From a virus (Duplodnaviria; Heunggongvirae; Uroviricota; Caudoviricetes): 18,429 bases of DNA. The stretch lies in the IMG/VR virus record IMGVR_UViG_2850761752_000004; one strand, 5' to 3'. A program made the position numbers. Shown here one piece after another: positions 6,001-9,000 of the stretch. Numbering within the stretch: position 1 is the first letter of the stretch; each line of letters begins with the position of its first letter.

Positions 6001-9000
6001 GTGCAGCAAGGTCATCATTTGTGTCCTTCTGCACGCGCTGTATCTGCTGTATGGTGGCGCTCTGGTCCTCCAGCGTTTTACTGACCGTCTGTGTGATTTC
6101 ATTGCGGGTTTCGGTGATGGTGGTCTTCATCTCCGCCATCTCATCCGCAAGCTGGCTGTTGTCTATCAGCTCCCACAGCCCCTGAGCCAGATGCAGTTTT
6201 CCTATTTTTTCCCGAAACAGCCCCAGATACCCTTCTGCATCATTGCTGGCCCGTCCACTGGCCTCCACAAAAGCAGATTTCCCCACCAGGTTGACGCTGC
6301 GCACGTAAAACCAGAAATCCTTCCCGGGCTTAATGTGCGGGCCGGATACACTCCACTGACTGCCGGTCCCCAGATAACGGGCAGAGGTTTCCACCTGAGA
6401 TGTGTCTGCGATTTTTGCCTCCGAAAACCAGAACTCAAACTGTACCGTCGGGTCATACACCGCAAGACGCGGTACCGCTGTTATCTGAAAATACCCCGGC
6501 GTCAGTTCAATGGTGGCGGGTTTTGCTGGCGCGTTAATCCGGAAGGTGGTGGTGGCCGGTTCGCCCTGCTGGCCATAACTGTTAATTGCCCTGACTGTCA
6601 GGGTGTATTCCCCGAGCGGCAGACCACTGAAACGATGCTCTGTATCCGCAGTGATAGCGGTGGTCACCAGACGGCTGTCTTCTCCGCTTCCGCTGGTCAG
6701 TCGCAGACTGAAGCGCACCCCCTTCACCACCCGCGGCGTGTCCCATTTCGCCTGTGCCAGATACTGGCCGTCAGCTGCGCTCACCTCCACCGTCAGGTGC
6801 TGCACTGCCGGTGGGATGACGCTGTTCAGGGAGCCTGACTGCGGCTCAAAGCGGGCACCGTTATCCACGATGGCTTCTTTTTCCGGTACGTGCTGCACCG
6901 CCGTGATGGCAAAGGTGCCATCCGTGTTTTCCCGGACGGAGACACAGCGGAACAGGCGACGGCGCAGTGACGGCAGGGAGAGTCCCCACACCCCGTATGT
7001 CTCCACACCATCAGGCAGGGTACTGACCTGTATCCGGTCCGGCGCGGGGTGTGCGGTGATGTCCACACTCACCGGCTTACCACTGCCGTTAATCAGGTTC
7101 ACCGCCGATGTACCTGTCTCCGGCAGGGTAACCTCACGGTCCAGCGTCAGGGTGCGGGTGGCAGCATCAATGGACAGGACACGTCCGCCGGTCATAGTCC
7201 CAGCATAGTCGTTATCACAGATTTCAATAATGTCACCCGGTGTGTGACGCAGCCCCTGTGACCCGAGCGTGAAGTCCACCGTCTGCGTTTCCAGCAGTCC
7301 GGTCTTTATCACCCACAGACCTGCACGGTGAGCCTGACCGCGGCAGGTACAGCCAAACGCATCCATCTTCAGCAGGTTGCGTCCGTAGCGCAGTATGGCT
7401 TCCGGGTCTTCCACCAGTTCCGTGGAGGTCTGCCAGCCGTTCTGCGGGTCGGTGTAATTCACCTCCACCGCCGTGTGCCGGTCCTTCAGGGCACTGAAGC
7501 TGTAGCGGAATCCCACGCCGTTATCATCCACCACCACATCGCTGTTGGTGTACGGCCACACCACATCCGACGGGCGGTCCTGAACGAACGTCAGCGTCTG
7601 ACCGTTCCATACCGGCATACAGCGCATCGCAGAGCAGAAATCACTGAGAACGTCCCACGCCTTACGCTGTTGTGCCAGGTACGCATTAAAGGTCATCCGC
7701 GGCTCGGTCCCCCCGAAACCATCCGGGACCGTCTGGTCGCAGTACTGCCCGATGGCATACAGCGCCCACTTGTCCACATCCGCCGCCCCCAGACATTTTC
7801 CCATGCCGTAGCGCGGGTGAGTCAGCATGTCCCACAGGCACCAGGCCGGGTTGTTGCTGTATGCCGGTTTCAGACTGCCGTCCCAGATACCACTGTACGT
7901 GCGTTTTTCCGGGTCATAGTTTGACGGCACCTGGATGATGCGACCGCGGATATGGTAGTTCACCGTCATCTGCTGACCACCAAACTGCTCCGCATCCACC
8001 TGCATCCCCACAATGGCCGTGTTCGGGTAGCACTGTTTCACATCGATGATTTCGGTGTATGACGACCACAGCGTTCTGTTCTGCAGCTGGTCCGTGGTGC
8101 TGTCCGCCGTCTCCCTGACCATCCGGATGTTAAAGGGGCGGGGAGGCAGATTATCCAGAATCACCGACGCAAGGAACTGTGAGGTGGTCTTGCCGTTAAT
8201 GGTGACATCCTTTTCTGTCACCCAGTTACCGTTACGCTGTAACTGAATCAGCAGACGGACAGAGGACGGATTACGGTCACCCTTTGACGTGGTCTCCACC
8301 AGTGACTGCACCCCGAAGGTCACCCGCAGGCGGTCAATGTTCGCTGACGTAATGGTGCGTGTTACCGGTTTTGCCCTGGTCACTTCGACACCCAGTACAG
8401 TTTCAGAGCCGGAGGACTCAAAGCTTTCCGGTGGTGTCTGCTCCTGCTCCCCGGCACGCCAGACCGCGGTCACACCGTGTATCACGGGATTACCGTCCGT
8501 GTCCGTCAGCGGGGTTTTGTTCACCAGAATACTCTGCAGGCCTTTCACCGGGCCTTCTATCGGTCCCTCACCAATCGCATCAATCACGCTCATCATCTGC
8601 GTGGATTTGAGATTGTCTTTCGCCTCACGCGGTGTGTGCGCCCTGCCGCCACCTTTGCCCATTACATCACCTCTTACCGTGATAATTGTTCACTCACAAA
8701 AACAACAGGCACCTCACCGGGTGCCTGCGTCATGACGGAATAAAATTTCTGAATATCTTCACATTTTCACACACTGACTGTGGCGCTTATAATTTCGCTG
8801 CGTTAGTGTTTTTTTGCCCGAGTAACAAAAACAACTCCTTCACATTGATCTTCATTTGTCTGTCCCCGCAGCTCCGCGATCACTGCGGGATTTTTTTATG
8901 TTTTATCCCTGTCGCCCGATAACCACGACCTTTCCGCCCCCGCCTTCATCACGGGTGCTGATGTCCTGGGATATACGGCGGGAGCCAACCAGCATTTCCC

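What the first reader, a model, noticed from the sequence alone, without database searches (positions are those of the whole stretch)
8693..8902. Promoter-plus-terminator unit between tail genes I and J that looks like a small RNA gene, antisense to the late operon
Lambda has almost no gap between I and J; here there are 240 bp. The gap contains a near-consensus sigma70 promoter on the plus strand (TTCACA, 16 bp, TATAAT at 8766-8793) and, about 100 nt downstream, a plus-strand intrinsic terminator (8865-8897). There is no credible plus-strand ORF between them. On the opposite strand a perfect 8-bp hairpin with a T-rich tail (8693-8727) sits just before the J RBS. Together this reads as a small RNA moron inside the tail operon. 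The body has a CA-rich stretch of the sort GcvB-type sRNAs pair with, so a sponge or anti-sRNA role is conceivable. The only minus-strand ORF here is a 22-codon peptide (MKINVKELFLLLGQKNTNAAKL, ATG at 8853-8855) that overlaps the promoter; I do not think it is real.
Basis: partly seen in the sequence, partly recalled or inferred. Interest (0 to 1): 0.6.

Follow-up and report, generated by a model that had tools for sequence, protein, structure and literature searches.

The report
Known prophage small RNA gene PasB

Summary
The I-J gap (8663-8902) is 100% identical to E. coli E2348/69 positions 1466256-1466495. There, Pearl Mizrahi et al. 2021 annotated the Hfq-dependent sRNA PasB. It is 83 nt, is Northern-verified and has 37 RIL-seq partners. 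PasB maps to window 8815-8897 on the + strand, antisense to the tail operon. EHEC homologues at the same site are EcOnc22/23/24 (Tree et al. 2014; about 85 nt, destabilised without Hfq). Function is still unpublished.

New here:
- The GcvB-sponge idea fails. PasB has no sRNA partners in RIL-seq, lacks CACAACA, and pairs with GcvB no better than shuffled controls.
- The unstructured centre (8828-8860) has perfect 9-11 nt matches to five of nine top RIL-seq targets. The sites in napF, tolC, caiF and yijD lie on start codons or ribosome-binding sites.
- PasB and EcOnc22-24 belong to one large cassette family, present in 1825 of 5426 complete E. coli genomes and sometimes in tandem arrays.
- An invariant TCTGA-N6-TCACA box lies at a fixed distance upstream of the promoter.
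- Neither small ORF is conserved.

Novelty: already known. Interest: low to moderate.

The parts
8815..8897 (+). PasB sRNA as published (83 nt). The allele is identical to E. coli E2348/69.
   Evidence: The gap is 100% identical to NC_011601.1 1466256-1466495. Table S6 of PMC8550237 gives PasB as 1466343->1466261 with probe AATCCCGCAGTGATCGCGGAGCT, which is the reverse complement of window 8870-8892.
8800..8814 (+). Possible 5' leader (GCGTTAGTGTTTTTTT), present only if transcription starts about 8800 from the TATAAT promoter. It is absent from the published 83-nt RNA.
   Evidence: The TSS is predicted from the -10 at 8788-8793. GCGTTA is 99% conserved in 53 variants. The published 5' end is 8815.
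8766..8793 (+). Promoter P1: -35 TTCACA (8766-8771), 16-bp spacer, -10 TATAAT (8788-8793).
   Evidence: 11 of 12 positions match. The -10 is kept as TATAAT, AATAAT, GATAAT, CATAAT or TATCAT in 50 of 53 variants; the -35 is only partly kept.
8804..8809 (+). Alternative -10-like hexamer TAGTGT (TAnnnT). It would start transcription at about 8816, which matches the published 5' end.
   Evidence: TAnnnT is kept in essentially all 53 variants. That it is used as a promoter element is an inference.
8748..8763 (.). Invariant box TCTGA-N6-TCACA. It has one mismatch to the CRP core TGTGA-N6-TCACA and is a candidate regulator-binding site.
   Evidence: It is the only match with at most 1 mismatch in the window; 0.57 are expected by chance, so the single match is not significant on its own. 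The half-sites are invariant in 52 of 53 variants (CTGA...TCACA in all 53) while the spacer varies. The distance to the -10 is fixed at 24 nt, including in every copy of the tandem arrays.
8828..8860 (+). Single-stranded target-pairing (seed) region: AAAACAACUCCUUCACAUUGAUCUUCAUUUGUC.
   Evidence: It is unpaired in the predicted fold. Five of nine RIL-seq target regions have perfect runs of at least 9 nt here, and 0 of 1000 shuffles reach that count. The sites lie in translation initiation regions.
8865..8897 (+). Intrinsic terminator and likely Hfq-binding 3' end: 7-bp stem CCCGCAG/CTGCGGG, 11-nt loop, A, then U7.
   Evidence: All 7 pairs are kept in 29 variants; one G-C pair is replaced by A-U in 2 of them.
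8695..8728 (-). Hairpin plus T-rich tail on the tail-operon strand, just upstream of the J ribosome-binding site. This is an ancestral feature of the junction and not part of the sRNA cassette.
   Evidence: Lambda has an equivalent sense-strand hairpin plus T run in its 60-bp I-J gap. The arms co-vary among variants, CAGGCACC/GGTGCCTG versus CAGGCATCC/GGATGCCTG.
8737..8902 (+). Extent of the mobile sRNA cassette: A/T tract, box, promoter, sRNA and terminator. It sits between the stop codon of I and the junction hairpin.
   Evidence: This block is 98% identical in the commonest variant, whose J-proximal flank is unrelated. It is absent from lambda-type junctions.
8790..8855 (-). 22-codon minus-strand ORF (MKINVKELFLLLGQKNTNAAKL). 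It is not a gene; it is the antisense image of the seed.
   Evidence: The start codon is missing in 21 of 53 variants. Predicted peptides vary from 12 to 44 aa and shift frame.
8903..9583 (-). Tail assembly gene I (context).
   Evidence: Pfam Lambda_tail_I. Annotated as tail assembly protein in E2348/69.
5189..8662 (-). Tail tip / host specificity gene J (context).
   Evidence: Annotated gpJ in E2348/69.

Best explanation
The gap carries the gene for PasB, a prophage-encoded, Hfq-dependent, trans-acting small RNA. It is the same family as EHEC EcOnc22/23/24. The gene is transcribed from its own sigma-70-type promoter in the opposite direction to the tail genes, and it ends at an intrinsic terminator whose U tail serves as the Hfq handle.

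Shown by others, for an identical sequence: the RNA exists, it needs Hfq for stability, it is more abundant in overnight static LB than in DMEM, and it is almost always the second RNA in Hfq chimeras with about 37 partners that are mostly mRNAs.

Shown here: its unstructured centre (8828-8860) has perfect 9-11 nt complementarity to several top partners. Four of these sites overlap a start codon or Shine-Dalgarno sequence (napF, tolC, caiF, yijD).

Inferred: PasB represses translation of these host and virulence-island mRNAs by blocking ribosome binding. Its promoter is controlled through the invariant TCTGA-N6-TCACA box, most likely by CRP or a similar dimeric regulator. The cassette is a moron that lambdoid prophages keep, even defective ones such as this, because it acts on the host in the lysogen.
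For: Identity:
- The gap is 100% identical to E2348/69.
- The PasB coordinates, length and probe match the window.
- PasB-2 differs at position 27, exactly as published, which fixes the numbering.

EHEC homologues:
- EcOnc22 lies in the Sp15 I-J gap on the strand opposite the tail genes.
- It is about 85 nt on a Northern blot and is destabilised in delta-hfq.
- Its probe matches the region just 5' of the terminator.

Behaviour in RIL-seq:
- 37 partners, none of them an sRNA, and 30 in CDS or 5'UTR.
- Fraction found as the second RNA: 1.0 and 0.99 in the two conditions.
- 258 chimeric fragments in the activating condition against 1820 in the non-activating one.
- delta-hfq log2 fold change of -6.8 and -2.4.

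Pairing:
- Five of nine target regions have Watson-Crick runs of at least 9 nt, against 0 of 1000 shuffles.
- Site positions relative to the start codon: napF -5..+6, tolC -3..+7, caiF +4..+12, yijD -17..-7, E2348C_RS14200 +15..+22.

Structure and conservation:
- The terminator is the only structure conserved across variants, and the body is unpaired.
- The box, the -10 and the terminator are conserved in 53 distinct variants while the body diverges.
- The family is present in 1825 of 5426 complete E. coli genomes and in Stx phages.
Against: - No regulatory outcome has been published for any PasB target, so repression is inferred only from where the sites lie.
- Four of the nine targets tested (map, hflX, rplX, E2348C_2648) have only runs of 6-8 nt.
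- The strong TATAAT promoter predicts a 98-nt RNA starting at about 8800, but the published RNA starts at 8815. The true start site is therefore unresolved.
- The box centre lies at -44.5 from a start at 8800, which is not a canonical CRP position. It fits a class-I-like position (about -60.5) only if the start is about 8816.
- A single match to the CRP core with one mismatch is expected by chance 0.57 times per window. The case for a binding site therefore rests on conservation alone.
Confidence: 0.85

Rival explanations
1. PasB is an RNA sponge or anti-sRNA in the manner of AgvB. Its CA-rich stretch (8821-8836) would sequester the GU-rich seed of GcvB or of another host sRNA.
For: The RNA contains AACAAAAACAAC. 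Prophage sRNAs of this kind, AgvB and AsxR, do exist in EHEC.
Against: - RIL-seq in E2348/69 records no sRNA partner for PasB, and the only sRNA partner of GcvB is SroC.
- PasB lacks the GcvB target consensus CACAACA.
- The longest Watson-Crick run to GcvB is 6 nt, and the duplex energy of the CA-rich stretch is no better than shuffles (-9.4 against -10.5 +/- 2.7 kcal/mol).
- Rfam's AgvB and AsxR models do not hit the gap.
- AgvB sits at the PR' moron site, not in the tail operon.
Confidence: 0.04
2. The main role is as a cis-antisense RNA. PasB is fully complementary to the I-J intercistronic part of the late transcript. During induction it would pair with that transcript, leading to RNase III cleavage or transcriptional interference, and so tune J expression. 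This would resemble lambda OOP RNA acting on cII. It could act in addition to the trans role.
For: The gene lies on the opposite strand between I and J, so it is complementary by construction. The position is kept in all variants, including intact Stx phages.
Against: - The cassette is kept 100% identical in a prophage whose tape-measure gene is broken by an IS66 insertion. It is also kept in remnants lacking J (L039, L050). In these cases no cis target matters.
- The sRNA body diverges freely, and cassettes occur in tandem arrays, which is not expected for a tuned cis regulator.
- PasB is expressed in uninduced lysogens and binds many trans targets.
Confidence: 0.2
3. The gap encodes a small protein: either the 78-codon + strand ORF 8686-8922 or the 22-codon minus-strand ORF. 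The latter is annotated as a 32-aa hypothetical protein in phage PhiR12_4.
For: Both ORFs exist mechanically. One phage record annotates a CDS in this position.
Against: - For the + ORF, segment length modulo 3 varies (30, 11 and 12 variants), and only 14 of 53 variants are stop-free.
- For the minus ORF, ATG is replaced by ACG or ACA, or falls at an alignment gap, in 21 of 53 variants. Predicted peptides vary from 12 to 44 aa with frameshifts.
- The ATGAAG...GGAG look of the minus strand is simply the complement of a seed that targets start codons and ribosome-binding sites.
Confidence: 0.02
4. The promoter and terminator motifs are chance matches in a degenerate spacer or gene remnant.
For: Short consensus matches are common. 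The shuffled expectation is 0.5 promoter-like and 1.2 terminator-like sites in 800 bp.
Against: The motifs are conserved in 53 distinct variants. A transcript with these ends has been detected by Northern blot, Hfq CRAC and RIL-seq.
Confidence: 0.01

Closest known systems
PasB (E2348CN_0006), 'pathogenicity associated small RNA' of EPEC E2348/69 prophage PP6 (Pearl Mizrahi et al. 2021, PMC8550237; Zhu, Shabalina and Storz 2026 preprint, 10.64898/2026.05.13.724894)
   Same: The sequence is identical across the whole 240-bp gap. Strand, neighbours (I and J), terminator and probe site are the same.
   Different: The gene itself does not differ. The surrounding prophage does: it is 93.6% identical and carries IS66 and IS3-family insertions.
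EcOnc22 / EcOnc23 / EcOnc24 of EHEC O157:H7 Sakai prophages Sp15, Sp14 and Sp11 (Tree et al. 2014, PMC4104026)
   Same: Same I-J junction and same orientation. The box, the -10, GCGTTA/GCATTA, ATCTTCAT and the terminator are shared. It binds Hfq and depends on it, and is about 85 nt.
   Different: Identity to the window's gap is only about 77%, and the body or seed differs (UAACGUUAAUCUUCAU against UUCACAUUGAUCUUCAU), so the targets probably differ. None of the papers I searched or read states the link between PasB and EcOnc22-24.
AgvB and AsxR anti-sRNAs of EHEC prophages (Rfam RF02702, RF02703)
   Same: They are short, prophage-encoded, Hfq-binding RNAs with an intrinsic terminator. They are morons expressed in the lysogen and have a conserved 3' part with a variable targeting part.
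   Different: They sit at a different locus (downstream of PR' and Q, not in the tail operon) and show no sequence or Rfam similarity. They work by sponging FnrS or GcvB, whereas PasB pairs with mRNAs.
Lambda OOP RNA (and P22 Sar): phage cis-antisense RNAs. This comparison rests on general knowledge, not a tool result.
   Same: A small RNA with its own promoter and intrinsic terminator, transcribed convergently to a phage operon and complementary to it.
   Different: OOP acts on its cis target cII through RNase III. For PasB there is no evidence of a cis effect, while the trans partners are documented.
PreS (LPR1), LPR2 and 6S RNA of lambda (10.1101/2024.10.31.621285)
   Same: Hfq-bound sRNAs encoded by a lambdoid phage that pair with host mRNAs.
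   Different: PreS lies between ea10 and ral, derives from the tL2a terminator and is expressed in the lytic cycle. Lambda itself has no PasB cassette at the I-J junction.

Membership tests
PasB sRNA gene | Sequence match to the published PasB gene and its Northern probe | tested here: met
   The gap is 100% identical over 240 bp to NC_011601.1 1466256-1466495. The reverse complement of the probe is found at window 8870-8892. The PasB coordinates map to 8815-8897.
PasB sRNA gene | Location between tail genes I and J of a lambdoid prophage, on the opposite strand | tested here: met
PasB sRNA gene | Expressed, Hfq-dependent RNA of about 83 nt | not testable with these tools
   This is published for the identical sequence in E2348/69: Northern blot, delta-hfq log2 fold change of -6.8 and -2.4. 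It has not been measured for the strain this window comes from.
EcOnc22/23/24 family (EHEC) | Homologous sequence at the same junction | tested here: met
   77% identity over 204 bp to the Sakai Sp15 gap. The elements are alignable throughout. The EcOnc22/23/24 probe aligns to the corresponding window segment with mismatches.
Hfq-dependent trans-acting sRNA (class) | Rho-independent terminator with a U tract at the 3' end | tested here: met
   A 7-bp GC-rich stem plus U7.
Hfq-dependent trans-acting sRNA (class) | An accessible seed complementary to multiple mRNA partners | tested here: met
   Five of nine RIL-seq targets have Watson-Crick runs of at least 9 nt to 8828-8858, against 0 of 1000 shuffles. 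The region is unpaired in the predicted fold.
Hfq-dependent trans-acting sRNA (class) | A regulatory effect on targets | not testable with these tools
   No reporter or proteomic data were found in the papers I searched or read.
AgvB-type anti-sRNA (GcvB sponge) | Carries the GcvB R1 target consensus CACAACA | tested here: not met
   The motif is absent. The longest Watson-Crick run to GcvB is 6 nt, and duplex energy is no better than shuffles.
AgvB-type anti-sRNA (GcvB sponge) | Physical association with the sponged sRNA on Hfq | tested here: not met
   RIL-seq Table S5 lists 0 sRNA partners for PasB, and the only sRNA partner of GcvB is SroC.
AgvB-type anti-sRNA (GcvB sponge) | Match to Rfam AgvB or AsxR, and location in the PR' moron site | tested here: not met
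   There is no Rfam hit in the gap even at E up to 10. The locus is in the tail operon.
CRP-dependent promoter | Sequence matching TGTGA-N6-TCACA | tested here: met
   TCTGAATATCTTCACA at 8748-8763 has one core mismatch, and the right half with its flank (TCACATTT) is perfect. The half-sites are invariant and the spacer varies across 53 variants.
CRP-dependent promoter | Site centred at a canonical distance from the start site (-41.5, -61.5 and so on) | tested here: inconclusive
   The centre is at 8755.5. This is -44.5 from a start at 8800 (non-canonical) and about -60.5 from a start at 8816 (class-I-like). The start site has not been mapped.
CRP-dependent promoter | Expression depends on cAMP-CRP | not testable with these tools
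   The only hint is circumstantial: PasB is higher in overnight static LB than in DMEM.
cis-antisense phage RNA (OOP-like) | Overlaps and is complementary to a phage transcript | tested here: met
   It is convergent with, and lies inside, the I-J intercistronic region.
cis-antisense phage RNA (OOP-like) | Alters processing or expression of the overlapped transcript | not testable with these tools
   No data are available. Retention of the cassette in defective prophages argues that this is not the main role.

The most novel reading that the evidence does not exclude
PasB and EcOnc22-24 are members of one large, previously unlinked family of sRNA cassettes that own the I-J junction of lambdoid prophages. 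Each cassette keeps a fixed promoter architecture: an invariant TCTGA-N6-TCACA box exactly 24 nt upstream of the -10, probably read by CRP. Each also keeps a fixed terminator. The targeting body, however, diversifies, and cassettes can be stacked into tandem arrays of 2-4 genes. Each prophage would thus plug its own catabolite-controlled set of ribosome-binding-site-blocking RNAs into the host network. The family membership and the arrays are shown here. The common regulator and the adaptive diversification are not.
Probability: 0.3. Interest if true: 0.55.

Novelty: already known. Interest (0 to 1): 0.3.

Why it matters
As a discovery it does not matter much. The RNA was reported in 2014 (EHEC) and 2021 (EPEC), and its distribution was surveyed in 2026. 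It remains worthwhile for three reasons.

1. PasB still has no published function. The seed region and the start-codon or ribosome-binding-site pairings found here for napF, tolC, caiF and yijD give directly testable targets.
2. Linking PasB to EcOnc22-24 and to many 70-80%-identical variants enlarges the family well beyond the near-identical copies counted so far. It also shows a fixed promoter and terminator scaffold around a variable seed, sometimes arranged in arrays.
3. The invariant CRP-like box suggests a shared input signal for all of these prophage RNAs.

The result also shows that reading raw sequence alone can recover a real sRNA gene.

Tried and rejected
- Rfam, at gathering thresholds and at E up to 10 on 8600-8960, gave only chance-level hits (Ref84, Hrs1, Trp leader and others). 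PasB is not in Rfam 15.
I rejected it because AgvB lies downstream of PR', and its probe and sequence differ.
- Lambda PreS/LPR1 was rejected because it lies between ea10 and ral.
- A recent CsrA-guide sRNA preprint does not mention PasB.
- Unrestricted RNAduplex runs of PasB against target regions gave inflated, loop-rich duplexes with weak z-scores. Counts of pairing runs that allowed G-U pairs were swamped by the U run. I replaced both with a Watson-Crick-only longest-run test against shuffles.
- A conserved 5' stem-loop is predicted for the 98-nt form of this allele (U run pairing with the A-rich stretch), but it is not conserved across variants and is absent from the consensus fold.
- The genome-contig scan with the J N-terminus returned mostly lambda DNA contaminating unrelated assemblies. 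It was useful only as the lambda comparison.
- The first IMG/VR pattern forced the box sequence, so I excluded it from the conservation statistics and used a second scan anchored on the sRNA 3' part.
- Exact mapping of the EcOnc22 CRAC peak is blocked by the coordinate shift between Sakai genome versions. I used the probe sequence instead.
- LexA, FNR, PhoP/PhoB and RcsB consensus sequences were compared with the box by eye and fitted worse than CRP. This comparison is from memory, not a tool result.
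Full report
**What is there**

The window is the tail region of a lambdoid prophage, with the tail genes on the minus strand. J is 5189-8662 and I is 8903-9583 (Pfam Lambda_tail_I), which leaves a 240-bp gap at 8663-8902.

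It also confirms a + strand terminator and the minus-strand hairpin 8728->8705 followed by TGTTTTTGTG. The terminator hairpin that is conserved is CCCGCAG (8865-8871) / CTGCGGG (8883-8889), with T7 at 8891-8897.

Phage lambda has only about 60 bp between I and J. That short gap already contains a sense-strand hairpin plus T run just before the J ribosome-binding site (lambda-derived loci). The window's minus-strand hairpin is therefore the ancestral junction hairpin. The extra DNA is a cassette of about 165 bp (8737-8902) inserted between the stop codon of I and that hairpin.

**Identity**

Rfam has no family for this region. The gap is, however, 100% identical to E. coli O127:H6 E2348/69, NC_011601.1 1466256-1466495, where RefSeq annotates nothing.

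Pearl Mizrahi et al. 2021 (PMC8550237, Table S6) list PasB there. It is E2348CN_0006, on the minus strand at 1466343->1466261, 83 nt long, in prophage PP6, with Northern probe AATCCCGCAGTGATCGCGGAGCT. The reverse complement of that probe is window 8870-8892. The coordinates convert to window 8815-8897 on the + strand.

Their data for the identical sequence are as follows.
- Abundance drops in delta-hfq, with log2 fold changes of -6.8 and -2.4.
- There are 37 RIL-seq partners, none of them an sRNA, and 30 in CDS or 5'UTR.
- PasB is the second RNA in 100% and 99% of chimeras in the two conditions.
- There are 258 chimeric fragments in the 'activating' DMEM condition against 1820 in overnight static LB.

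[quoted passage not shown] It states that the function of the Pas sRNAs is not known. Its PasB-2 differs from PasB at position 27. That is exactly the C-to-A difference at window 8841 in the commonest variant I fetched, which confirms the numbering.

**Link to EHEC**

Tree et al. 2014 (PMC4104026, Table S2) list EcOnc22 in prophage Sp15. It lies on the + strand, is about 85 nt on a Northern blot, and is destabilised in delta-hfq. Homologues EcOnc23 (Sp14) and EcOnc24 (Sp11) are listed with it.

In Sakai the Sp15 tail genes are on the minus strand, and the I-J gap is again 240 bp. The EcOnc22/23/24 probe is the reverse complement of the + strand just 5' of the terminator in that gap. The Sp15 gap aligns with the window's gap at 77% identity, with every element in register.

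A 2021 review still lists the EcOnc22 targets as unknown. Table S6 of the EPEC paper names EHEC homologues for PasA and PasD but none for PasB. The 2026 preprint never mentions EcOnc. The equivalence of PasB with EcOnc22-24 therefore seems not to be stated in the papers I searched or read.

**How it probably works**

Only the terminator is structurally conserved: 29 variants, 7 pairs, and one G-C pair replaced by A-U in two sequences. The body between about 8828 and 8864 is predicted to be unpaired.

I read the PasB rows of the RIL-seq table and fetched nine of the best-supported target regions. Five of the nine contain perfect Watson-Crick runs of at least 9 nt to PasB, all within 8828-8858. 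None of 1000 shuffles of the target sequences reached five.

| Target | Matching target sequence | PasB position in window |
|---|---|---|
| napF | TCAATGTGAAG | 8838-8848 |
| fabR-yijD | AATGTGAAGGA | 8836-8846 |
| caiF | TGTGAAGGA | 8836-8844 |
| tolC | CAAATGAAGA | 8849-8858 |
| yhhX | AGTTGTTTT | 8828-8836 |

Relative to the annotated start codons, the sites lie as follows.

| Gene | Site position relative to start codon |
|---|---|
| napF | -5 to +6 |
| tolC | -3 to +7 |
| caiF | +4 to +12 |
| yijD | -17 to -7 (on the Shine-Dalgarno sequence) |
| E2348C_RS14200 | +15 to +22 (from the 8-nt run) |

The most likely mechanism is therefore the ordinary one for Hfq sRNAs: occlusion of the translation initiation region. 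This step is inferred, because no reporter data exist.

It also explains the 22-codon 'ORF' on the minus strand. That ORF is simply the complement of a seed that mimics GGAG...ATGAAG. Its ATG is missing in 21 of 53 variants, and the predicted peptides vary from 12 to 44 aa. The 78-codon + strand ORF 8686-8922 is likewise not conserved.

**The sponge idea**

- PasB has no sRNA partners, and the only sRNA partner of GcvB in the same data set is SroC.
- PasB lacks the CACAACA motif that defines AgvB.
- Its longest perfect match to GcvB is 6 nt.
- The CA-rich stretch pairs with GcvB no better than shuffled versions do.

**Family and promoter**

The more sensitive BLAST mode (blastn) finds the gap in 1825 of 5426 complete E. 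coli genomes, with up to 11 places per genome. It also finds it in 147 phage records, mostly Stx-converting phages. The best-conserved block is 8737-8902. In the commonest variant the J-proximal flank is unrelated and the gap is 342 bp. This marks the cassette as the mobile unit.

I assembled 52 distinct variants that were not selected on promoter sequence, plus the window. The conservation profile is striking.
- The TCTGA and TCACA half-sites (8748-8752 and 8759-8763) are invariant in 52 of 53 (CTGA...TCACA in all 53), while their 6-nt spacer varies.
- The -10 is kept as TATAAT, AATAAT, GATAAT, CATAAT or TATCAT in 50 of 53.
- GCGTTA (8800-8805) is 99% conserved.
- The body is only 66-78% conserved apart from ATCTT.
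- The terminator stem and U run are 98-99% conserved.

The box differs from the CRP core TGTGA-N6-TCACA at one position, and its right half plus flank is a perfect TCACATTT. On its own such a match is not significant, with 0.57 expected per window. The argument rests on the pattern of conservation and on the fixed 24-nt distance to the -10, which also holds in every copy of the tandem arrays. Higher PasB in glucose-free overnight LB than in DMEM is compatible with CRP control but is far from proof.

**An unresolved point**

The TATAAT promoter predicts a start at about 8800 and a 98-nt RNA, but the published 5' end is 8815. A second -10-like hexamer, TAGTGT at 8804-8809, has the form TAnnnT in all variants. 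It would start transcription at about 8816, which matches the published end and puts the box centre near -60.5, close to the class I CRP position. From 8800 the box centre is at -44.5, which is not canonical. Either tandem promoters or 5' processing could explain the discrepancy. Only 5'-end mapping can decide.

**Things seen in related loci**

Some prophages carry several cassettes in the I-J gap.
- L070 has a gap of about 920 bp with four boxes, each 24 nt upstream of a -10-like hexamer. Three have PasB-type terminators and one has a different terminator.
- L148 has three cassettes.
- 11 of 64 distinct IMG/VR clusters have at least two.

The bodies of the copies differ. This suggests a locus where sRNA genes duplicate and diversify on a fixed promoter and terminator scaffold.

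**The host prophage**

An IS66-family element (about 14485-17250) interrupts the tape-measure gene. An IS3-family element with its ALIL frameshift pseudoknot lies at about 1150-2450. The prophage is therefore defective, yet the PasB cassette is intact and identical to that of E2348/69. This fits a function in the lysogen rather than in tail gene expression. For that reason I rank a purely cis-antisense role below the trans role. It is not excluded.

**Verdict**

The GcvB-sponge suggestion and the coding alternatives are rejected.

What is new here is modest:
- the link between PasB and EcOnc22-24;
- the breadth and array organisation of the family;
- the conserved CRP-like box and the two-start-site question;
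- concrete pairings at start codons or ribosome-binding sites for napF, tolC, caiF and yijD.

Noticed in passing
window 1150-2450 (ALIL pseudoknot at 2024-2140, minus strand): An IS3-family insertion sequence. The ORFs 2095-2421 (HTH_Tnp_1) and 1208-2098 (rve integrase core) are joined by an Rfam ALIL frameshift pseudoknot (116 bits).
   Followed up: partly
window 14485-17250 and 11267-14428: An IS66-family element (TnpC at 15287-16888, + strand) is inserted near the start of the tape-measure gene. The flanks align to E2348/69 with an 8-bp overlap. The tape-measure reading frame is also split at about 13040-13048. The prophage is therefore defective although the sRNA cassette is intact.
   Followed up: partly
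L070 306-1235 (reverse strand); L148 4401-5110 (reverse strand): Tandem arrays of PasB-like cassettes in the I-J gap of other prophages. L070 has four boxes and L148 has three, each box followed 24 nt later by a -10-like hexamer and then a divergent body and a terminator. 11 of 64 distinct IMG/VR clusters have at least two copies.
   Followed up: partly
L163 4006-4450 (reverse strand), positions 104-257 of that stretch; also L070 and L148: A second cassette type shares the TCTGA-N6-TCACA box and an AACTCCTTAAGGTGAC body motif. It ends in a different terminator (CTCCCG...CGGGAG plus a T run) and has a poor -10. This may be a separate sRNA family at the same junction.
   Followed up: no
window 8804-8809 versus 8788-8793: Two conserved -10-like hexamers lie 16 bp apart (TATAAT and TAGTGT). 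The published PasB 5' end (8815) fits the second, not the first.
   Followed up: partly
window 8757-8765 and 8838-8846: The 9-mer CTTCACATT occurs twice, once as the right half of the conserved box and once as the core of the PasB seed. In other alleles the seed copy differs, so this may be coincidence.
   Followed up: no
L046 525-866 and L049 525-867 (commonest PasB-2-type gap, 342-343 bp): The J-proximal part of the gap is unrelated to the window's. It carries its own hairpin, CCCCGGTATC...GATACCGGGG, followed by TTTTC on the + strand, where the window has the junction hairpin.
   Followed up: no
L052 762-860 (phage PhiR12_4, PV340553.1): A 32-aa 'hypothetical protein' is annotated inside the gap on the tail-operon strand. 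It corresponds to the non-conserved antisense ORF and is probably a mis-annotation.
   Followed up: partly
L004, L007-L026 and others (genome-contig hits): Lambda-like or E. coli prophage tail DNA turns up in assemblies labelled Streptomyces, Pseudomonas, Shewanella, Bradyrhizobium and others. Several are contigs of about 48.5 kb. These look like lambda or E. coli contamination of those assemblies.
   Followed up: no
window 8705-8728 compared with L039 and L040 in the alignment: The arms of the junction hairpin co-vary (C-G to T-A). One variant (L039) carries the one-sided change, which is a U-G wobble on the + strand but a C-A mismatch on the tail-operon strand. L039 is a degraded prophage.
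   Followed up: no
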